A DNA stretch of 54,715 nucleotides, counting the filler, from Basidiobolus ranarum (Eukaryota): assembly GCA_040143965.1 (NCBI GenBank). It is 4 parts of 4 records of this genome, joined end to end, with 100 filler letters (N's around TTAATTAATTAA, not from the genome) between each part and the next. Parts side by side here need not be neighbours in the genome. Positions count along the whole stretch, not along the records: positions 27,431 to 41,036 come from JASJQH010007350.1; 3 more parts are not named here. One strand, given 5' to 3'. The translations under genes were made by a program, and so were the position numbers. Position 1 is the first letter of the stretch; the number at the start of each line of letters is the position of its first letter. Below, one piece after another: positions 27,331 to 36,210 of the stretch. The notes below the pieces were generated by a model. The model was given only the letters and a program-made list of their open reading frames with translations. It had not been told where the DNA came from and searched no databases.

Positions 27331-27430
27331 NNNNNNNNNNNNNNNNNNNNNNNNNNNNNNNNNNNNNNNNNNNNTTAATTAATTAANNNNNNNNNNNNNN
27401 NNNNNNNNNNNNNNNNNNNNNNNNNNNNNN
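27331..27430. other. Artificial contig-join spacer
   Basis: N run with TTAATTAATTAA at 27375-27386; IML1 is cut at this point. Confidence 0.97.
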
Positions 27431-30085
27431 CACATTCTTGGCAGGGTTGCAGGGCTTGATCAGGCTTTGACGAATGACCGGTCGTGAATTGAATCCGTTG
27501 CGGGGAGATGGCTGCTTATTAGGGTACCTGTTCCCCCCCCTTGCCAGTGAACTCACCATCGAGTCAACTTTGCTTTGATACGATGAAGGGTCAATGAGAG
27601 ATCTTTTAAAATCTTTGCGGGGTTGGCCATTGCTGATCATGATTGGTTTAACAGTACTGGAACTGATTGGGGTGGATGGTTCCTCATCATTAAGAGATTT
27701 TGTATCAGCAACCACAGTTGGATTACCATTGCTCTCAATATCTCGAGGGTGAGCTTGTCCTCCCCGGGTGGATGAAGCTTCTGATTGGTCGTTATCTCTT
27801 GGCTCAGGGCGGCTCAAGGCATGAGGGCTCTTACTGTTGGCAGCTGTGTCAGGTTTTTGTGATTTTTCTTCGGAATGAAATATGGGGCGCTGTTGGTGTC
27901 GGCGCGCGACGTACATACCAGATGTGACAAAACTGCTTGATATCATAGTTTTGGGAAGACTTCCGAAAGGCTCCGTGGAGTTCGACTCGTAGACTTTCCC
28001 ATATGTGTAGTCTTCGAAGCTCCTTCGGGGGAAGATCGAGTCAGAAACTGGGTTAGCATTAAGAGGGTTTTGTTGGGAAACCGCTTCGCCGTAATTGTCG
28101 GAAATAGTTTCGCGAAGACTTCGTGTTTTAAGGGCTTGCTTCAGCTTGAGAGTTCGACGCGAATCACTTTGGAAAACATCCTCATCATACTTGTCAAACA
28201 CACACGATGTTTTGTCCGCGCTCTCATCCAATCCAGCTCCATTCTTGATGGGAGTTATGTACTTGTCATCCAGATATTCTATGGAAATGGGGGCCATCTC
28301 ATGCTCCATGACACCCATCATCTGTAGGTTATACATTTTACATCTTGGAATGAATTTCTCTGATTTGTGACTGCCTTCATCATTGACGCTATAGAAGCTA
28401 CAGTCAATCCAATGAGGCATAGCGTAATACACATCCATCTGACTGTTGGGATCGGGGTCGTCATAGTATAGGGGCTCCCACATGTCTAGTTTCTCAGTAT
28501 TGTCTGAGGCAGGCTTGTCGGAAAATTTGGATTTGCCATAGCCACCCTGATCAGCAGAGAGATATTTCTTGTCTAGCTTTTGCTCAGAAGCCTTGTTGGG
28601 GTCCAATAATTTAGAGATACTGCTCGAAAGAAACTTAAACAGAGGGACGGTATAAAGGGGATATTTTGATAAACATACAAGGTCTAAACCTATACCGTTA
28701 TCTATCATCCGCTCAGTAGTAACTCGAAGGAGTTTCTTGTCGACTTCAAAAATCCCAGTTCCAGGAGTAATAATCACTATTGAAAGCCCGGTGCGAAGCA
28801 GATCACGGTCAACATAGTGTTTATCAAAAGCATTCAGGGCAAGATTGATGGCTTCCAAGATATTGCCTTCGTGTGCCATGGTGTTTTCTCCACTCAAATA
28901 GGTTGATTTATCTACACGAAGCTCTAGAATATCCTTTCTAAAGGAGATAAATTCTTTTTTGAGATGGACAATTGCTGTACCCCAGTCGCTTCGTGTTTCC
29001 CAATCTGCCACTACCTTGTAATAGTCTTTGTACCATCGATGATCGCTGGCCTGGCGCAACAGACCATCTTTCGCTAGCTCCTTGCTGTACTCATAAAATA
29101 CTCGAGTAAACATAACAATAGACGCTACATGGTTAGTTCCGAGCTCTCTCCAGCGTCCAAAGAGGTCTGGTAGAAAGTTGTGGGTGGCTTTCTCAAAAAA
29201 AAGCATTCCATCTTCATCAAAATCCCACATCTCACGACTCATTTGTATAAATATGTAATATTTGGCGGATTCAGATCGAAAGATGGTCCGAGTATTCTCA
29301 GTAATATAACCACACATGGCCTATAGAACACATAATTTTCTTTAGATGTAAGGCCTCAAAGTAATAAAGTCGTATAGCTGAAACTTACTGTTCCTCCCTT
29401 AACATATATCTCTTTGACCTGTACTCTAACACATCCAGCAAACGAAACTTTCTTTCCGACATGAACACAAGTGCCGTTCAGGCTCAATTTTAACCGCCAC
29501 ATGTCACTACGACCAATGTATTGATCTTTAAAAGTGAACTCAATATACTCAGTAGCAATGGAATCAGCATCCACCTGAGAAATTATTATGAATACGACAA
29601 TTAGACTCACGAGAATGCAAAACCAAAATGGCATTTACCTTTCGAACCATGATATCTTTACGCGCTTGAAGACCAAAGGTTGTGGCTATGTGATTAGCAA
29701 TAGAGATCTAAGAATATTCAGTTAACCGTTAACCACAAATTTAAGTACGTGCTGCTCAAAAGAATGTGAGTAGGCTGAGATATAGTACTTGCAATTGAGG
29801 CTGCTTAGCCAAAATGTCACTATCAGAAGGCTCAACTTGTAGAATTAAAGGCTTTTCATTGGAATCATTCAGTTTCGCTTTGTATTCTATATATCCAGGC
29901 TTTGTTTCTGCTGTAGGAGTAGTTTGGGATGGTGGATGGAATATTTCCAGAAGATCTCCAGGCTTGATACCGGGGAAACATTCTGGATTTATAACCACGT
30001 CTTGTTTTGAAAAGCCATAATCGTGGACCCATAAATTATAAGTTTTGACCGCGCCAGACGGTATGTCATTACTATGTGGAGACAT
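27431..30085 (-). CDS. IML1: GATOR1/SEACIT subunit Iml1/Sea1/DEPDC5, 3'-partial, multi-exon
   Basis: NLWVHD, KPGDLLEI, FKDQYIGRSDMWR, IFRSESAKYYIFIQMSREMWDFDEDG, GNILEAINLALN, DRDLLRTG, PHWIDCSFY. Truncated by the gap. Confidence 0.95.
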
Positions 30086-30507
30086 TTTGAGTTTATAGGA
30101 GCACTCGTAGTAAAATTATTTAATGTTTACGTCGTACGGTTGTTTCTTTTATCTTATTTTGTTCGTAAACAGGTTATTCTACTATCTTTTTTGGTACTTG
30201 GCAAGTATTCAAACTACCATGGATTGATTTCGACTTTGAGCAATATTGAAATGGTTTAAATTTAAGTATTGCGATAGCCTCCTTGCACACTGAAATACTT
30301 AACTTTGACCCGGGTAGCATTTTCCTTAAAAAGGCCAATAGGAGGTGAACATCGACGTATCTGTAGGATAAGGGATTATTTTTTTTCTTCATTTTTTTTG
30401 TGGTATACTTGATTACTATACCCCCGGCAAAGTGGTATAAAGTTTCGTTTCTGATATCGCTGAATATCCTTTCTCTCCGCGACCTCAGTTGTATACTATA
30501 GTTAAAC

Positions 30508-30914: not shown

Positions 30915-31340
30915 ATTACGAACTTTACATTTGCTATAAGGTTAAGGGATAGAATTGGTAGTAGAACAAAATGATTTTCATACAAAGCGTTCTATAGTGC
31001 TCCATTACCTTCAACTTTGCATTTATTAAGATCTATATTTATTTTAAAATTTCCAAATACCACCTTGGTTTTTTATACGTGTGATTGATGTCGTTGCGCA
31101 GGCTTTACAATTATCCACTTGACTCTGTTGCGTTTACTCTTGAAAATTTAGGCAACTTTTGAATGTTCCTAACTTTTTTGAACGTTTGCAGACATTTGGG
31201 ATAATACTTTTGGAGACTATTTTCTATGATGAAATAAAGTTTCCCTTTAGTCCATATGATATACATCTTATTTTATTTATGGTATCTAATTGCTTGTCTA
31301 CATAGTGGATTTCTTTAACTTGGTCACATCACAATCTACA

Positions 31341-32306
31341 TTATTCAATCAAGGTTCTGCCATCCGACCAGTATTGGTCACCATAGCTGACAAAGATCTC
31401 TTCATTTGGCTGGATATCTCTCTGGGCCACGTAAAACACATGCCAGAGGTTGTCGTGAACACTGTACATGGTTTCTGCATTCTGTAGCTCTAGGGATTTA
31501 AGCAGAACTCAGTTAGATCTATTAAATAACAGGTCATTCTTCATAAACTTACTGGTATTGTGATTAGCAAAGCGAAGGTAGTTTCCTATTTCTAGCGAGT
31601 CAATGGTTAGATCGACTTGGTAGAAGTCTTTGTCCACAACAACGCTGTCTAGATAGCTATATTGCCAAGCATAAGCGCCATCAAGTGTCTTGTTGGTAAG
31701 TAAGCCTGTTTGAAGTGTGAGTAGAGGACTACTTATCAATGTATCTTGCGTATATGTTACCTGTGTATAGTCCCACTATGGTTCCCTCAGGAATCAACTC
31801 GCTGGTGAACAATCCCCATTTAATGATGTCGTTGATCCATCGAATGTAGAGTCGCTCATCATCTCTATCTTCTCTGATGATTTCTACGTATTCGCTGAAC
31901 ACTTCAATATTTTCAACGACCTCTTCGATCTCGTCGTCATTTTCCATGAAATCGAACGGAGTTGCACCATCTACCCACTGTTCAATTTCTTGGTCAACAA
32001 TCATATGGTTCACAGGAGTGATATTGAAAGCTTCCTGAAAGTCTGGCATGTAATAACGGCGATATACGAAAGTTCCATTTTGATAAAGTCCCGGATTAAA
32101 AAGAGAGAGCTCAGAGTCGACATTCAATGCTACATCTTATTGGTATTGTCAGGTCTTTGGTGTATTGTACTAACAGCTGGATTGACTTACCTCCCTGTAC
32201 CAAAAGGAGATGGCTTACTATCGAGAATATGGTGAGTAGCTAGATGGTCACTTAAAGGTTATTCAATGTACAGTAAGGATCAGTCTAGTCAAATCCAATT
32301 TACCAT
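31341..32306 (-). CDS. SET-domain protein (240 aa) with predicted N-terminal signal peptide, 5 exons
   Basis: Exons 32306-32304, 32239-32191, 32129-31761, 31705-31553 and 31489-31341 total 723 nt in frame. Product MLLTIFSIVSHLLLVQGALNVD...LYIRWINDIIKWGLFT...GLYTG...IDSLEIGNYLRFANH...RDIQPNEEIFVSYGDQYW. Confidence 0.85.
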
Positions 32307-32795
32307 GTAATGTTGATGCTTATGGTAGAGCTGGTGGAGTGACTGAAGAGAACAGAGATATTGATGACAACGAGCTATATCAGAACTGCTTATATAGGTT
32401 GCAGAGTACCTATGCCGTCCTCCCTTGTTAATCCTACATATGTCTCTGTGTTGAAGAGTGTGCCTTTTGCATGTGTTTGATGAGTTTCAGAAACCTTTGA
32501 TATCGAATGTCTAAATGGAGTGCAGAGAACGCTGGTTAATATAAAAATAGTACGGTCTTCCAGTGAAGCAATGTTGATTTGTTGATTACACTTGAATTTT
32601 TATGTCGAGTTATGCACTCCAGTCGCATTTCTAGTGACATATTATTAGAAGCAGCCATACAGTACAATATAAATAGGCAGCTGTTGAACCTGAGGGCAAT
32701 AAATACTAACAAAAAATCTATAACACTTGCCCATATCTATTGCCGTGGTTCCATTTTCTTTTCACACTTGAGGCGCTTTGATACCTCAAATATCT

Positions 32796-33275
32796 ATGGT
32801 CTATTTGAAATATTTGACGTGTTTCTTCGCCTTTGCTCTGCTATGCAATGCTGAGACTACCTTCATAAAGGTGCTTTTTCTATCTTACGATAGATCAAAT
32901 GTTACCATCGCTGTAGGAGACACCGTTCAATGGTCATGGCTTAGCTCTGCTCACTCCGTGACCCAAACGGCTCAACAAGCAGGATGCGATCCAATGGCTG
33001 GTGGTTTTGATTCCTCAGTACTGGATGTTGGCTCCAACTTTAGTGTTGTTTTTAGTAAGCCAGGAATATATCATTATCACAGCAGTCAGGGACTAAACTG
33101 TCGTTCAGGCATGGCTGGAGAGATAAATGTCGGTACACTGAACAACGGAGTATTGAGCCTTCCACCCCGACCTAAAGCCATTCTAGATAGTGTCTCCATT
33201 GCTACATCAGCTTCGACTTGGTCGTCTTGTCTTCTAGGGATCATTGGAGTTTCCCTCTTACAGACGATATTCTAA
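32796..33275 (+). CDS. Secreted/GPI-type cupredoxin-fold protein (extracellular serine-rich protein family)
   Basis: Signal peptide; VTIAVGDTVQWSW..AHSVTQ....C....GGFDS...PGIYHYHS....CRSGMAGEIN; hydrophobic C-terminus. Confidence 0.82.
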   Translation: MVYLKYLTCFFAFALLCNAETTFIKVLFLSYDRSNVTIAVGDTVQWSWLSSAHSVTQTAQQAGCDPMAGGFDSSVLDVGSNFSVVFSKPGIYHYHSSQGLNCRSGMAGEINVGTLNNGVLSLPPRPKAILDSVSIATSASTWSSCLLGIIGVSLLQTIF

Positions 33276-34155
33276 TGTAGAAATGCGTACTAAAGAAAAC
33301 ATTCTTACGGTCTACCACTGTAGAGATTCTTGACTAAATCAGGCTTTGGATAAAATATTTTAACGATTTATTTGTATATCCCCTTTGAAACGTATCTTTT
33401 ACTTGCGTCAAGTATGGTGAATTGCATTAGAATGGCTCGTTTCATTTCTGGATGGGTTTCTTGCTCTATTACAAGTGATACCATAGTATAACCATAACAC
33501 GTGAGCAGTCGGAGTGTATTTTCTTACAGCTACCTACGTCTATCGGATTAATGTGTGTGTATATAACAGTATATCAGTGTTGAAGATTAAATAATTAGTA
33601 AACCTTGACTAAACACTCAGATATGTATGCGATGACTTCACTGATGGAACATGTCTAGTAATCACTCATATTCTGCTATTTCTGAGGTTTAAAGAACACA
33701 GGTCACTGCTAAAGTGTATGATAACCATCCAAGGTTATAGTGCAAATATCAAAGGTTGTTTTAGATAATAGAAGTCAAATTCGATATTCGGGCCATTCAT
33801 GCAGTTATTGGTAATGTTACTCGCTGTTATTTGTTAAAACTTTACCGATAAGCCCACTCAATATATTAAGCTTTGTTATAGTAGACGAAAAAGCGTAAAA
33901 GCGTAAAAGCAAACAATGAATTGGAAATTTTAGTGGCTTTTGATCAGATACATCTACATTAACAAACATTCATGATTGGATATTATGCAGCAGCACTTTA
34001 ATAATGTTTCCCTTTACAGATAGAAGATCTCTACATTTTTCAACTGGATGTACAAGCAACCCTTAAGCTTGTACGAATGTTGTGCTACACATCTGACCAA
34101 TATAAAACCCCGGATCTCATTTTAAATACCAAGATCGTCTATTCGTAATATTAAT

Positions 34156-36210
34156 ATGAAATTGTGCTCTCTTCTCATATTAGTTGTACCTTTAACTGGT
34201 GCTCTTCGACCACTTACTCCCCAGGATCTAGCGGTCATCACTAAGCCTAGTGCTGCTGTGCCTTCTCCTGATGGAAATTGGGCGGTTTTTTCTGGTTCAA
34301 ACTATGATATAACCAACAATACTAGCACAAAGAATCTATGGTTGCTCAACTTGAAAAACAATCAGGTAACTCCTTTGACTACTCCTGGGAAAACTGGAGA
34401 CTCTGTGCCGATTTGGTTGGATAACACCACTGTTGGCTTCCTCTCCTCTCGATCAAAATCCTCCCAACTTTGGGCCATTGATATTGTGAAGCCTAAAGCT
34501 CAACCATTGCAAGTTACGAACTTTACTCTTGGTATTAGTAACATAAAGTATAATCGGAGAGCCAAGCTTTTGGCTTTCACTACCCCCGTATACGAAGATG
34601 GGTCTATGGAGAAAGCCGTTGAAATTAATCTTGCTGAGAGTAAGCGCACTGACTCCGCTTTAGTATATGATCAATTGATGGTCAGGCATTGGGACACCTT
34701 TACATCCAAGAAAAAGAAAAATATCTTTACTGTTCAACTTGACAAGAAAAGAAATGATTATTCTGTTTCATCTTTTCCGGTTAACGTTATGAAACAAACC
34801 GGCTTAGAATCTCCAGTTCCACCACTTGGAGGTTCTAAAGATTTTGACATTTCTCCGGATGGTAAAGAGATTGCTTTCAGCGCCAAAAAACCAGGAAGAG
34901 ATTATGCCTGGGAAACAAAAATTGACATTTATATCGTTCCATCAAACGGAAGTAAACCACCTAAATCTCTCACTAATGCAAATCCCGCTGCTGCTTCATC
35001 TCCAGCTTATTCTCCAGATGGAAAAACTCTAGGTTGGCTTCAAATGGAAAGACGTGGCTATGAATCGGATCGTAAGCGAATTATCTTATACGACCGTAAA
35101 ACCAACAAATCACGTTATCTAAACAAGGATTGGGATCGTTCTCCAGACGGAATTGTTTGGTCTTTTGATTCCGCTGCTCTTTTTCTACCTACCAAGGAAT
35201 ATGGACGTATCAAGATCTTTGCAGCTGATGTCAAAAGTGGCCATATCAAGACCATTGTCAATGAGCATAGTACTTCCTCAGTACACATCTTGAACTCGGA
35301 TACTTTACTTCTAACACAGAGTGCTATGAATCACCCAAGTGAATTTTTCACTGTTAAAACTGACGGTTCGAACCTCAAGCAAAAGACACACCTTCACAAG
35401 CCCAGAATAAGTGATGTATATCTTCCTGCTCCGGAGGAATTTTGGTTCAAAGGTGCAGAAGGCGACAAGGTCCATGGTTGGTTACTAAAGCCCTTTGGAT
35501 TTAAGTCTGATAAGAAATACCCAGTGGCTTTCCTTGTCCATGGCGGACCTCAAGGCGCCTGGTCGGACAGCTGGAGTAGTAGTTGGAATCCAGGAATTTT
35601 CGCCTCAGCGGGGTTTGTAACTGTTTTAATTAATCCACGGGGTTCTACAGGATATGGACAGAAGTTTACGGACCAAGTTCAGCAGAGTTGGGGTGGTCGT
35701 CCTTACGTCGACTTAATGAATGGTTTAGACTACATTCTTCAAACTTATCAGTATACTGATTCGAAACGAGTGTGCGGTCTTGGAGGTAGTTATGGTGGAT
35801 ACATGATGAATTGGATCAATGGGCAGACTGACCGATTTAGCTGTCTCGTTAATCACGATGGTAAATTCTCCATCCTTTCTGGGTACTACTCCACGGATGA
35901 ATTGTGGTTTCCAGAAAGCGAAATGGGTGGACTTCCTTGGGAGCCTGAAGCCCTCAAGAATTATGAAAAGTGGTCGCCATCTAATTATGTTCAAAATTGG
36001 AAAACTCCGACATTAATTATCCACGGTGCCCATGACTATCGAATTGTTGATGGAGAAGCTTTCTCTACCTTTACTGCTTTGCAAAGACGAAACATCCCCT
36101 CTCGTCTACTTTACTTCCCTAATGAAAACCACTGGGTAACGAAACCCGCAAATACTCTTCGCTGGCATGCGGAAATCCTCAAGTGGATAAATAAGTGGAC
36201 CGGGAACTAA
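34156..36210 (+). CDS. DPP5: Secreted dipeptidyl-peptidase V (S9 family)
   Basis: Signal peptide; propeller SPDG repeats; VRHWD; HGGPQGAW; nucleophile GGSYGG; Asp in DYRI; His in ENHWV. Intronless, 684 aa. Confidence 0.93.
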   Translation: MKLCSLLILVVPLTGALRPLTPQDLAVITKPSAAVPSPDGNWAVFSGSNYDITNNTSTKNLWLLNLKNNQVTPLTTPGKTGDSVPIWLDNTTVGFLSSRSKSSQLWAIDIVKPKAQPLQVTNFTLGISNIKYNRRAKLLAFTTPVYEDGSMEKAVEINLAESKRTDSALVYDQLMVRHWDTFTSKKKKNIFTVQLDKKRNDYSVSSFPVNVMKQTGLESPVPPLGGSKDFDISPDGKEIAFSAKKPGRDYAWETKIDIYIVPSNGSKPPKSLTNANPAAASSPAYSPDGKTLGWLQMERRGYESDRKRIILYDRKTNKSRYLNKDWDRSPDGIVWSFDSAALFLPTKEYGRIKIFAADVKSGHIKTIVNEHSTSSVHILNSDTLLLTQSAMNHPSEFFTVKTDGSNLKQKTHLHKPRISDVYLPAPEEFWFKGAEGDKVHGWLLKPFGFKSDKKYPVAFLVHGGPQGAWSDSWSSSWNPGIFASAGFVTVLINPRGSTGYGQKFTDQVQQSWGGRPYVDLMNGLDYILQTYQYTDSKRVCGLGGSYGGYMMNWINGQTDRFSCLVNHDGKFSILSGYYSTDELWFPESEMGGLPWEPEALKNYEKWSPSNYVQNWKTPTLIIHGAHDYRIVDGEAFSTFTALQRRNIPSRLLYFPNENHWVTKPANTLRWHAEILKWINKWTGN

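What the first reader, a model, noticed from the sequence alone, without database searches (positions are those of the whole stretch)
31341..32306. Signal-peptide-bearing SET-domain protein resembling bacterial (chlamydial/Legionella-type) SET effectors
Seen: a 3-nt first exon (ATG) and a 49-nt second exon, both invisible in the ORF track, give MLLTIFSIVSHLLLVQG-A, a plausible cleavable signal peptide. A TATA-like tatataag lies ~85 nt upstream. The mature part has N-glycosylation sequons (NGT, NIT, NKT) and a complete SET core (WGLF, GLYTG, GNYLRFANH, EEIFVSYG..YW), with no pre- or post-SET cysteines. Known: eukaryotic SET methyltransferases are normally nuclear or cytosolic, whereas intracellular bacteria secrete SET nucleomodulins (Chlamydia NUE, Legionella RomA/LegAS4). 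The segments DFQEAFNI and LYIRWINDIIKWGLF recall chlamydial SET proteins from memory. Inference: a possibly horizontally acquired, intron-domesticated secreted lysine methyltransferase, acting either as a host-directed effector or in the secretory lumen.
Basis: partly seen in the sequence, partly recalled or inferred. Interest (0 to 1): 0.75.

Follow-up and report, generated by a model that had tools for sequence, protein, structure and literature searches.

The report
Fungal SET methyltransferase with export signal
A Basidiobolus gene encodes a small SET-domain lysine methyltransferase that starts with a secretion signal, and it belongs to an old, intron-bearing eukaryotic family of membrane-anchored SET proteins whose nearest bacterial cousins are chlamydial, rather than being a recent bacterial import.

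Summary
The five-exon, 240-aa model on the minus strand (31341-32306) holds. All four introns are GT-AG and 55-64 nt long. The public model of this locus (B. ranarum K7432_008501, 196 aa) is an exact substring starting at Met45. A paralogue and the B. meristosporus orthologue carry the same hydrophobic N-terminus. No RNA data or SignalP could be run.

The SET core is intact (Pfam SET 59-62 bits; AlphaFold pLDDT 86; best fold match ATXR5, Z 16.3). The N-terminal hydrophobic segment is a family trait: 46 of 70 members of the window's clade have one, and flank charges mostly put the SET domain outside the cytosol.

The family profile hits 176 of 200 Chlamydiota genomes, and a chlamydial-rich clade is sister to the window's clade (SH-aLRT 84-91). 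The closest relatives are intron-bearing eukaryotic genes, and two of them share the window gene's introns 3 and 4 at the same codon and phase. Grouping Basidiobolus with prokaryotes is rejected (p-AU 0.014). Recent bacterial transfer with later intron gain is therefore not supported.

Most likely this is a secretory-pathway lysine methyltransferase, comparable to the proposed diatom BacSETs. Localisation, substrates and activity are untested.

The parts
32389..32396 (-). TATA-like box (tatataag)
   Evidence: Read. It lies 83-90 nt upstream of the ATG, with no ATG in between. Function is inferred.
32304..32306 (-). Start codon at the 3' end of exon 1. The 5' UTR part of this exon is not mapped.
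   Evidence: Followed by donor GTAAAT. It is the first ATG downstream of the TATA-like box.
32240..32303 (-). Intron 1 (64 nt, GT..AG, phase 0)
   Evidence: Its length matches the gene's other introns (55-63 nt). There is no RNA evidence.
32191..32239 (-). Exon 2 (49 nt). It encodes LLTIFSIVSHLLLVQG plus the first base of codon 18, i.e. the h- and c-regions of the signal peptide.
   Evidence: It matches the N-termini of P0001 and P0002; SHLLLV is identical in P0002.
32130..32190 (-). Intron 2 (61 nt, GTAAGT..TAG, phase 1)
31761..32129 (-). Exon 3. It encodes the linker, the conserved N-module (about residues 36-110, 31852-32076) and the start of the SET domain (from about residue 122, 31818).
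   Evidence: The public model K7432_008501 starts inside this exon at Met45.
31706..31760 (-). Intron 3 (55 nt, phase 1, inside the Gly codon of G-x-Y-x-G)
   Evidence: L083 and L085 have an intron at the same codon and phase.
31553..31705 (-). Exon 4. It encodes the middle of the SET domain, including GNYLRFANH.
31490..31552 (-). Intron 4 (63 nt, GTAAGT..TAG, phase 1, in the codon two residues after N-H)
   Evidence: L083 and L085 have an intron at the same codon and phase.
31341..31489 (-). Exon 5. It encodes the SET C-terminal part (EEIFVSYGDQYW, with the catalytic-type Tyr) and the TAA stop at 31341-31343.
   Evidence: Pfam SET matches this exon alone at E 3e-6.
31272..31277 (-). AATAAA, a possible polyadenylation signal about 65 nt after the stop
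   Evidence: Read. Inference only.

Best explanation
This is an intact, spliced Basidiobolus gene: four short introns, with the start codon separated from the rest of the coding sequence by intron 1.

The 240-aa product has four parts:
- A 17-residue ER signal, MLLTIFSIVSHLLLVQG|A. It is either cleavable or acts as a short signal anchor.
- A disordered linker.
- A helical N-module.
- A catalytically complete SET domain with no pre- or post-SET cysteines.

The mature protein is about 26 kDa, pI 4.1 and free of cysteine.

Proposed mechanism. The signal takes the enzyme into the ER. The SET domain therefore sits on the lumenal or extracellular side. There it transfers methyl groups from SAM to lysines of basic secretory or cell-surface proteins.

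The gene belongs to an old eukaryotic family of N-terminally anchored SET proteins. That family's sister group is a set of bacterial SET proteins, mostly chlamydial.

Shown here: gene structure, conservation, fold, motif integrity, family-wide hydrophobic N-termini, shared introns and tree position.

Inferred: ER entry, cleavage site, lumenal topology, enzymatic activity and substrates.
For: Gene model:
- Splice sites are canonical and introns are uniform at 55-64 nt.
- Exons 2 and 3 have no in-frame ATG, so an upstream ATG exon is needed.
- P0003 is an exact substring of the model from Met45.
- The region upstream of Met45 is conserved in P0001 and P0002 (80% and 78% identity over the full length).

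Signal:
- There is an uncharged hydrophobic run at the extreme N-terminus, with V at -3 and G at -1, in all three Basidiobolus proteins.
- AlphaFold gives a helix at residues 2-16, disorder at 17-36, and a fold at 37-236.
- 46 of 70 members of the window's clade and 25 of 36 members of the bacterial clade have an N-terminal hydrophobic segment. The domain parts, used as a control, show 2 of 70 and 0 of 36.
- The N-flank is the more positive one in 37 of 51 members of the window's clade (9 opposite, 5 ties) and in 16 of 20 of the bacterial clade.
- Close relatives P0018, P0025 and L085 have a 30-aa basic tail followed by a TM segment, which is type II topology.

Enzyme:
- Pfam SET scores 59-62 bits against a cut-off of 22.4.
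- The alignment to G9a keeps RFxNH and the DYG tyrosine.
- Family invariants are G125, G183, N184 and N190; Y229 is near-invariant.
- Fold matches: ATXR5 Z 16.3, NSD2 15.7, SETD2 14.6; Foldseek ATXR5 E 1.8e-10.

Ancestry:
- A 38-row clade (SH-aLRT 99) holds no prokaryote.
- Within it, a 10-row clade (97) holds the window gene together with intron-bearing L085 and P0018.
- Two intron positions are shared.
- The AU test gives p 0.014.
- The neighbouring genes are ordinary fungal ones (IML1, RPS27) and GC content is uniform.

Precedents from papers:
- Diatom SET methyltransferases (BacSETs) are co-expressed with silica-wall genes (passages read).
- SAM is imported into the plant Golgi (abstract seen in the listing).
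Against: - There is no RNA evidence for introns 1 and 2. The public annotation of this very locus starts at Met45 and has no signal.
- No signal-peptide predictor could be run. My hydrophobicity and charge tests are crude heuristics: 9 of 51 family members point the other way, and one scored segment (P0094) lies inside the domain.
- Intron 1 has a weaker branch-point-like motif than the other introns (read).
- A cysteine-free protein is atypical for a secreted fungal protein.
- SAM supply in the fungal ER or Golgi lumen, or outside the cell, is not established.
- Three sequons in 240 aa are not by themselves unusual, and only two are kept in all three Basidiobolus proteins.
- All solved relatives are nuclear histone methyltransferases.
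Confidence: 0.5

Rival explanations
1. Secreted host- or prey-directed effector. The mature SET enzyme leaves the hypha, enters an animal, amoebal or microbial cell, and methylates histones there, like a bacterial nucleomodulin.
For: - The protein has a signal-peptide-like N-terminus and no membrane tail, unlike its type-II relatives.
- The mature protein is acidic (pI 4.1) and would suit basic substrates such as histones.
- The sister bacterial clade is chlamydial-rich. Chlamydial NUE is a secreted histone methyltransferase (passages of PMC3980110).
- The nearest solved folds are histone methyltransferases.
- Basidiobolus lives in animal guts (abstracts listed).
Against: - No uptake motif or nuclear localisation signal was seen. 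I did not test for either formally.
- The closest relatives are membrane-anchored like resident Golgi enzymes, which argues for action inside the producer's own secretory pathway.
- The gene is conserved at about 80% identity among paralogue and orthologue. It sits among housekeeping genes, with no sign of an effector-type family expansion: only 3 Basidiobolus proteins were found.
Confidence: 0.15
2. The hydrophobic N-terminus is a membrane anchor that leaves the SET domain in the cytosol (P450-like orientation), or it is simply a longer N-terminus produced from another first exon. The enzyme then methylates cytosolic or nuclear-envelope substrates.
For: - 9 of 51 family members have the more positive flank on the C-side, and 5 are ties.
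- SAM is plentiful in the cytosol.
- 12 alternative upstream ATG..GT exons exist mechanically. One (32658-32590) would add a 23-aa tail.
Against: - In all three Basidiobolus proteins the C-flank is acidic and there is no positive cluster after the hydrophobic run.
- The h-region has about 14-15 hydrophobic residues, which is short for a TM helix.
- The alternative first exons lie upstream of the TATA-like box and would need introns of 310-620 nt in a gene whose introns are 55-64 nt.
- Relatives with long basic N-tails fit type II topology.
Confidence: 0.18
3. The public model is right. Translation starts at Met45, giving a 196-aa cytosolic or nuclear SET protein, and the upstream mini-exons are not used.
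For: - K7432_008501 is annotated this way.
- No RNA data are available here.
Against: - The 27 residues upstream of Met45 in the same open frame are conserved in P0001 and P0002. The F/Y-V-Y-R-R/H-x-Y motif is also conserved in homologues at 30-37% identity.
- In the AlphaFold model the fold begins at residue 37 of P0002, upstream of that Met.
- Two independent annotations of relatives include the hydrophobic N-terminus.
Confidence: 0.07
4. Recent horizontal transfer from a bacterium (chlamydial or Legionella type) into Basidiobolus, followed by intron gain.
For: - The family is abundant in bacteria: 495 confirmed stretches in genome contigs and 176 of 200 Chlamydiota genomes.
- The Atlas lists a Chlamydiota-labelled cluster among the three nearest.
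- Basidiobolus is reported to be rich in HGT (title and abstract of PMC7466969).
Against: - Two of the gene's introns sit at the same codon and phase as in two other eukaryotic homologues with about 32% protein identity.
- The best named bacterial match is 34% over 123 aa (90 bits), against 37% over 243 aa (155 bits) for a member of the window's clade.
- 0 of 32 prokaryote rows fall inside the window's clade, and the AU test gives p 0.014.
- GC content is the same as in the neighbouring genes.
- The gene is not among the 8 strongly supported B. meristosporus xenologues of Ciach et al. 2024 (supplement read).
Confidence: 0.04

Closest known systems
[quoted passage not shown] 2020, Mar Biotechnol 22:551)
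   Same: - They are small eukaryotic SET-domain methyltransferases linked to the secretory pathway and cell-wall formation rather than to chromatin. 24 of them peak together with silica-deposition genes in Seminavis (passage read).
- They are thought to methylate wall proteins and long-chain polyamines (passage read).
- The Atlas's nearest cluster to P0018, a close relative of the window protein, is labelled Bacillariophyta (score 0.93).
   Different: - They are described as diatom-specific, whereas this gene is fungal.
- Kinship could not be tested because no labelled BacSET sequence was available and the paper is not held.
- That BacSETs carry ER signal peptides is my recollection and comes from no call.
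- Basidiobolus makes no silica wall, so the substrates must differ.
Chlamydial SET proteins NUE (CT737) and cpnSET
   Same: - They share the wider family profile: 176 of 200 Chlamydiota genomes match A1 at E<=1e-10.
- A chlamydial-rich clade is sister to the window's clade (SH-aLRT 84 and 91).
- They share the N-module plus SET layout and lack pre- and post-SET cysteines.
- They are exported enzymes (PMC3980110 passages).
   Different: - They are bacterial and intron-less, and are exported by type III secretion rather than by an ER signal peptide.
- Many chlamydial members carry N-terminal ankyrin-like repeats instead (N-termini listed; the ankyrin reading is by eye).
- The best named chlamydial matches to the window protein score below the 12 best bacterial hits, i.e. 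under 74.7 bits.
- That NUE itself falls in the sampled clade is inferred, not tested.
Legionella RomA / LegAS4
   Same: They are secreted SET-domain methyltransferases with a SET fold (8swi: Z 12.2, 130 residues aligned, rmsd 2.7).
   Different: - Sequence similarity is weak (5czy, E 7e-3) and lower than to human G9a (1.7e-6).
- They rank 16th by fold.
- They carry ankyrin repeats and are type IV secretion substrates (abstract of PMC10653858).
- No ankyrin domain was found by Pfam in P0001-P0003.
ATXR5 (plant H3K27 monomethyltransferase; closest solved fold) and G9a/EHMT2 (closest solved sequence)
   Same: - The SET fold includes an N-flanking helical region: 4o30_A, Z 16.3, 181 residues aligned, rmsd 3.2.
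- The RFxNH and DYG motifs align with G9a.
   Different: - They are nuclear chromatin enzymes with PHD, pre-SET or post-SET zinc modules.
- Sequence identity is 16-25%.
- They have no signal sequence.

Membership tests
SET-domain protein lysine methyltransferases (Pfam PF00856) | Profile match above the curated cut-off | tested here: met
   PF00856 scores 59.4, 60.5 and 62.1 bits on P0002, P0001 and P0003 against a cut-off of 22.4. P0003 equals window residues 45-240. Exon 5 alone gives E 3e-6.
SET-domain protein lysine methyltransferases (Pfam PF00856) | SAM-binding and catalytic motifs: G-x-G-like, Y-x-G, R-F-x-N-H, and the Tyr of E-x-x-x-x-Y | tested here: met
   KWGLF, GLYTG, YLRFANH and EEIFVSYG are present. 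They align to G9a's GWGV, EYVG, RFINH and FDYG. N190 is invariant and Y229 is kept in at least 90% of the 36 family rows.
SET-domain protein lysine methyltransferases (Pfam PF00856) | SET fold | tested here: met
   The AlphaFold model of P0002 has pLDDT 86. Foldseek gives ATXR5 at E 1.8e-10. VIA gives Z 16.3 to ATXR5, and 42 chains score Z>=8, nearly all of them SET or PR domains.
SET-domain protein lysine methyltransferases (Pfam PF00856) | SAM-dependent methyl transfer to lysine | not testable with these tools
   This needs an enzyme assay.
Proteins with a cleavable ER signal peptide | n/h/c regions at the extreme N-terminus, with small or neutral residues at -3 and -1 | tested here: inconclusive
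   By eye and by Kyte-Doolittle windows, M + LLTIFSIVSHLLLV + QG|A has V at -3 and G at -1, and all three Basidiobolus proteins share this. No trained predictor was available. An uncleaved signal anchor is not excluded.
Proteins with a cleavable ER signal peptide | Evidence that the encoding exons are expressed | not testable with these tools
Support is comparative only.
Bacterial secreted SET nucleomodulins (NUE, RomA/LegAS4) | Encoded by a bacterial genome and exported by type III or IV secretion | tested here: not met
   This is a eukaryotic gene with four spliceosomal introns, flanked by IML1 and RPS27. It nests among intron-bearing eukaryotic homologues.
Bacterial secreted SET nucleomodulins (NUE, RomA/LegAS4) | Specific sequence kinship | tested here: inconclusive
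   It shares the wider family and is sister to a chlamydial-rich clade (SH-aLRT 84-91). LegAS4 scores only E 7e-3. NUE itself was not compared.
Diatom BacSETs | Sequence kinship with the named BacSET proteins | not tested
   No labelled BacSET sequence was available and the paper is not held. The only lead is a Bacillariophyta-labelled Atlas cluster nearest to P0018.
Diatom BacSETs | Restricted to diatoms and co-expressed with silica-wall genes | tested here: not met
   The host is a fungus: the protein is identical to B. ranarum K7432_008501 over 196 aa. Expression was not testable.

The most novel reading that the evidence does not exclude
The Basidiobolus protein may be the fungal representative of a eukaryote-wide, previously unrecognised family of extracytosolic SET-domain lysine methyltransferases.

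- Layout: signal or type-II anchor, then a helical N-module, then the SET domain.
- Origin: descended from an ancient exchange with chlamydia-like bacteria.
- Function: these enzymes would methylate lysines of secreted and cell-wall proteins inside the secretory pathway.
- Consequence: the 'diatom-specific' BacSETs would be one branch of this family, and lysine methylation of extracellular proteins would be far more widespread than assumed.
Probability: 0.3. Interest if true: 0.75.

Novelty: new variant of a known kind. Interest (0 to 1): 0.5.

Why it matters
SET enzymes are treated as nuclear or cytosolic chromatin writers. The accepted exceptions are bacterial effectors and, tentatively, diatom wall enzymes.

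This gene suggests a third setting: a fungal SET enzyme that enters the ER. It is embedded in a family where an N-terminal anchor predicted to point the catalytic domain away from the cytosol is the rule.

If that holds, three things follow:
- It points to enzymes that could write methyl-lysine on secreted or wall proteins.
- It offers a non-diatom system in which to test that idea.
- It documents an old link between chlamydial and eukaryotic SET proteins.

It also corrects a public gene model: K7432_008501 lacks 44 N-terminal residues, the signal included.

Tried and rejected
- **Whole genome.** None is held, so I could not count paralogues or compare the 5' exons of P0001 and P0002 at DNA level.
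- **Names for the 150 representative hits.** The two further homologous-protein searches returned only 4 of 196 and 7 of 4477 candidates. The eukaryotic label of the window's clade therefore rests on two intron-bearing loci, the three Basidiobolus proteins and Atlas cluster labels.
- **The search for related loci with the 36-row alignment.** I used the 7-row bacterial alignment A2 instead, so the named bacterial loci are biased toward the bacterial clade. The exhaustive representative search partly offsets this. In it the best bacterial-clade representative scores 85 bits (P0057), against 156 bits for the best non-Basidiobolus member of the window's clade (P0005).
- **Viral contigs.** 32 pattern matches, none a relative.
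- **Earlier findings of this scan.** Nothing.
- **HGT lists.** The Ciach et al. supplement has no SET entry for Basidiobolus. The supplement of Tabima et al. 2020, which lists 811 candidates, could not be read, so this gene may be listed there.
- **Nemoto et al. 2020.** Not held.
- **Literature on signal-peptide or lumenal SET enzymes.** Searches found only the BacSET citations. Within those searches, nothing on a fungal signal-peptide SET is in print.
- **N-glycosylation sequons.** Not used as evidence of secretion: there are three in 240 aa and I ran no statistical test.
- **L081 and L082.** These are bacterial contigs, not eukaryotic relatives.
Full report
**1. What is in the sequence**

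On the minus strand of 31341-32306 there is a five-exon gene:
- Exon 1: ATG at 32306-32304.
- Intron 1: 32303-32240.
- Exon 2: 32239-32191.
- Intron 2: 32190-32130.
- Exon 3: 32129-31761.
- Intron 3: 31760-31706.
- Exon 4: 31705-31553.
- Intron 4: 31552-31490.
- Exon 5: 31489-31341, including the TAA stop.

All four introns are GT..AG and 55-64 nt long, with GC 0.32-0.38 against 0.42 for the CDS. The CDS is 723 nt and encodes 240 aa.

The frames of exon 2 and exon 3 each open right after a stop and contain no ATG upstream of Met45. A start codon from an upstream exon is therefore required. The ATG at 32306 is the first one downstream of the tatataag box at 32396-32389.

Twelve other ATG...GT phase-0 exons can be drawn mechanically further upstream. 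They lie beyond the TATA-like box and would need introns of 310-620 nt. None of them would remove the hydrophobic segment. They would only place a tail in front of it.

**2. Whose gene it is, and support for the model**

Exon 3 finds two named proteins at 79-80% identity:
- K7432_007092 of Basidiobolus ranarum (P0001, 244 aa).
- A SET-domain protein of B. meristosporus CBS 931.73 (P0002, 242 aa).

A third record, B. ranarum K7432_008501 (P0003, 196 aa), is an exact substring of my model from Met45 to the end. The window is therefore this locus or an identical allele, and the public model is truncated at an internal Met.

P0001 and P0002 begin MVTLLGVITLLSQLFLVQG-D and MVIGMLAVISHLLLVRG-D. The window gives MLLTIFSIVSHLLLVQG-A.

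The 27 residues between the signal and Met45 are conserved in both relatives. Their F/Y-V-Y-R-R/H-x-Y-M-x-D-F core is also conserved in homologues of 30-37% identity.

RNA evidence could not be obtained, and no genome is held.

The neighbouring genes are ordinary fungal ones: IML1, ribosomal protein S27e, a plastocyanin-like protein, an S9 peptidase and a C2H2 factor. GC content is uniform across the region.

**3. The protein**

- Pfam SET scores 59-62 bits (cut-off 22.4) on P0001-P0003.
- By sequence, the closest solved protein is human G9a/EHMT2 (E 1.7e-6), with RFxNH and the DYG tyrosine aligned. LegAS4 reaches only 7e-3.
- An AlphaFold model of P0002 built with 36 family sequences has pLDDT 86. 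It shows a helix at 2-16, disorder at 17-36, and a compact fold at 37-236.
- Foldseek ranks ATXR5 first (E 1.8e-10, 203 columns).
- The Foldseek-independent search gives ATXR5 Z 16.3, NSD2 15.7, SETD2 14.6, G9a 14.1, and LegAS4 Z 12.2 at rank 16.
- The mature part (residues 18-240) is 26.3 kDa, pI 4.1, and has no cysteine. It has sequons at N35, N53 and N145, and the last two are kept in P0001 and P0002.

The catalytic motifs are complete. Activity itself is inferred.

**4. The family**

An exhaustive HMMER search of 1.84 billion representatives with P0002 gave 1219 hits at E<=1e-3 and 213 at E<=1e-10. 71 of the 156 sequences then held also cover the N-module upstream of the SET domain.

A FastTree of 150 rows splits them into two main groups:
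- A 94-row clade holding the window protein (support 99).
- A 39-row clade.

Seven members of the second clade were used to scan prokaryote genomes. Of 588 pattern matches, 495 encode relatives, and the best 80 were kept. These come from Bacteroidota/Cytophagales, Chlamydiota, Thermodesulfobacteriota, Spirochaetota, Elusimicrobiota, Babeliales and others.

The family profile A1 hits 176 of 200 sampled genomes of the phylum of a Chlamydiae MAG at E<=1e-10.

The bacterial consensus reads ..LF..LGL.Y.. and AP.YIKWI.D.IGYG.FA.

**5. The N-terminal hydrophobic segment is a family trait**

I looked only at M-started members with at least 18 residues ahead of the aligned domain:
- 46 of 70 in the window's clade carry a hydrophobic N-terminal segment.
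- 25 of 36 in the bacterial clade do.
- The domain parts, used as a control, show 2 of 70 and 0 of 36.

Flank charges are as follows:
- In the window's clade the N-flank is more positive in 37 of 51 (9 opposite, 5 ties).
- In the bacterial clade it is more positive in 16 of 20.

This is the orientation that places the SET domain outside the cytosol. Close relatives (P0018, P0025, L085) have a basic tail of about 30 residues followed by a TM segment, which is classic type II topology. The three Basidiobolus proteins have the segment at the very N-terminus, with an acidic C-flank and V/G at -3/-1, like a cleavable signal.

These are heuristics, not predictor output. One scored segment (P0094) lies inside the domain.

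**6. Origin**

*Atlas labels.* The clusters nearest to P0002 are labelled Oomycota, Chlamydiota and Haptophyta (all 0.96). The cluster nearest to P0018 is labelled Bacillariophyta (0.93), and its nearest structural clusters are chlamydial (TM 0.53-0.54).

*Metagenome loci.* A metagenome scan with the nine closest sequences returned 5 loci.
- L083 encodes P0018 itself (98-100% identity per exon), split by five GT-AG introns.
- L085 (GC 0.31) encodes a 294-aa type-II-anchored homologue with five introns at the same five places.
- L081 and L082 are bacterial contigs.

*Shared introns.* Two of those intron places coincide exactly with introns of the window gene:
- Phase 1 inside the Gly codon of G-x-Y-x-G: window ACA G|GC, L083 GCT G|GC, L085 TCT G|GA.
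- Phase 1 in the codon two residues after N-H: window ACC A|AG, L083 GAC G|TT, L085 GAT A|AA.

These proteins share only about 32% identity, so the introns are old.

*Trees.*
- In an IQ-TREE (LG+C20+F+G4, 70 rows) all 38 non-prokaryote rows form one clade (SH-aLRT 99) with none of the 32 named prokaryote rows inside.
- The window protein sits in a 10-row subclade (97) together with P0018 and L085.
- The sister of the 38-row clade is a 12-row clade that is mostly Chlamydiota (84). With L081 and L082 added, this support rises to 91.
- Forcing Basidiobolus together with the prokaryotes costs 15.9 log-likelihood units (p-AU 0.014).
- A 229-row FastTree gives the same picture: a 95-tip clade with 0 named prokaryote rows inside.

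*Raw similarity.* The window protein's best named bacterial match is a Cytophagales protein (34% over 123 aa, 90 bits). Its best match within its own clade is P0006 (37% over 243 aa, 155 bits).

*Caveats.*
- Most rows in the window's clade are unlabelled.
- The bacterial loci were recruited with a bacterial-clade query.
- The outgroup rows are short.
- I cannot say whether other fungi have the gene.

**7. Reading**

The gene model is an improvement on the public one.

There is a real and probably ancient tie to chlamydial-type SET proteins. The Basidiobolus gene itself, however, is a long-standing eukaryotic gene, not a recent import that later acquired introns.

I favour a secretory-pathway or cell-surface lysine methyltransferase (0.5) over the alternatives:
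- A host-directed effector (0.15).
- A cytosol-facing anchored enzyme (0.18).
- The truncated public model (0.07).
- Recent bacterial transfer (0.04).

My reason is that the relatives look like resident type II enzymes. The nearest concept in print is the diatom BacSET group:
- It is cited as methylating wall proteins and polyamines (passage of PMC11554505).
- Its members are co-expressed with silica-deposition genes (passage of bioRxiv 10.1101/2020.11.23.393678).
- The original paper is not held, so kinship is untested.

SAM import into a Golgi lumen has a plant precedent (abstract of bioRxiv 10.1101/2021.07.06.451061 as listed). Facts on NUE, cpnSET, RomA and LegAS4 are taken from passages of PMC3980110.

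**8. Novelty**

My searches of the held library found no description of a fungal signal-peptide SET, or of a cross-kingdom family of N-terminally anchored SET proteins.

The orthologue is in public databases only as 'SET domain-containing protein'.

I rate this a new variant of a known kind, with moderate interest. Localisation, substrates and activity all remain to be shown.

Noticed in passing
window 31341-32306 (-): The public protein record for this locus (B. ranarum K7432_008501, 196 aa) starts at internal Met45. It omits 44 conserved N-terminal residues, the signal included. The paralogue K7432_007092 and the B. meristosporus orthologue are annotated with the full N-terminus.
   Followed up: yes
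window 32772-33275 (+): The divergently transcribed neighbour starts about 490 nt from the SET gene's ATG. It encodes a plastocyanin/azurin-like copper-binding domain (Pfam Copper-bind, E 1.4e-4). It has a signal-like N-terminus (MVYLKYLTCFFAFALLCNA) and a hydrophobic C-terminal tail that looks like a GPI signal. Together with the S9 peptidase at 34126-36210, which also has a signal-like start, this makes three neighbouring genes with export signals.
   Followed up: partly
window 27383-30115 (-): This is an IML1/DEPDC5-type gene (Pfam IML1, E 2e-85, plus IML1_N_fung). A run of N in the window interrupts it, and the frame reads X at the low-coordinate end of the 27383-29320 ORF.
   Followed up: no
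L083 1-1100 and L085 694-2008: Two AT-rich metagenome contigs (GC 0.37 and 0.31) carry homologues with five spliceosomal introns at identical positions and a type II membrane anchor. Their organisms are unknown. They could be other early-diverging fungi or protists.
   Followed up: partly
L001-L063 (named bacterial MAG loci): Bacterial members of the family show three kinds of N-terminus. Bacteroidota/Cytophagales and others have a signal peptide or TM segment. Some, such as L014 (Chromulinivoraceae), have lipoprotein-like boxes. Many Chlamydiota have ankyrin-like repeats. An exported SET domain in free-living-looking Bacteroidota and Desulfobacterales is unexplained, since SAM is not expected outside the cytoplasm.
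   Followed up: partly
alignment A1: A subset of the window's clade (P0009, P0021, P0024, P0027, P0039) has N-D instead of N-H in the RFxNH motif. This hints at altered cofactor contacts in that subgroup.
   Followed up: no
P0005, P0016, P0028: Some representatives look like mis-assembled or fused predictions. P0005 has an internal duplication of the N-module region. P0016 (1179 aa) has 17 matched stretches. P0028 is 4152 aa long.
   Followed up: no
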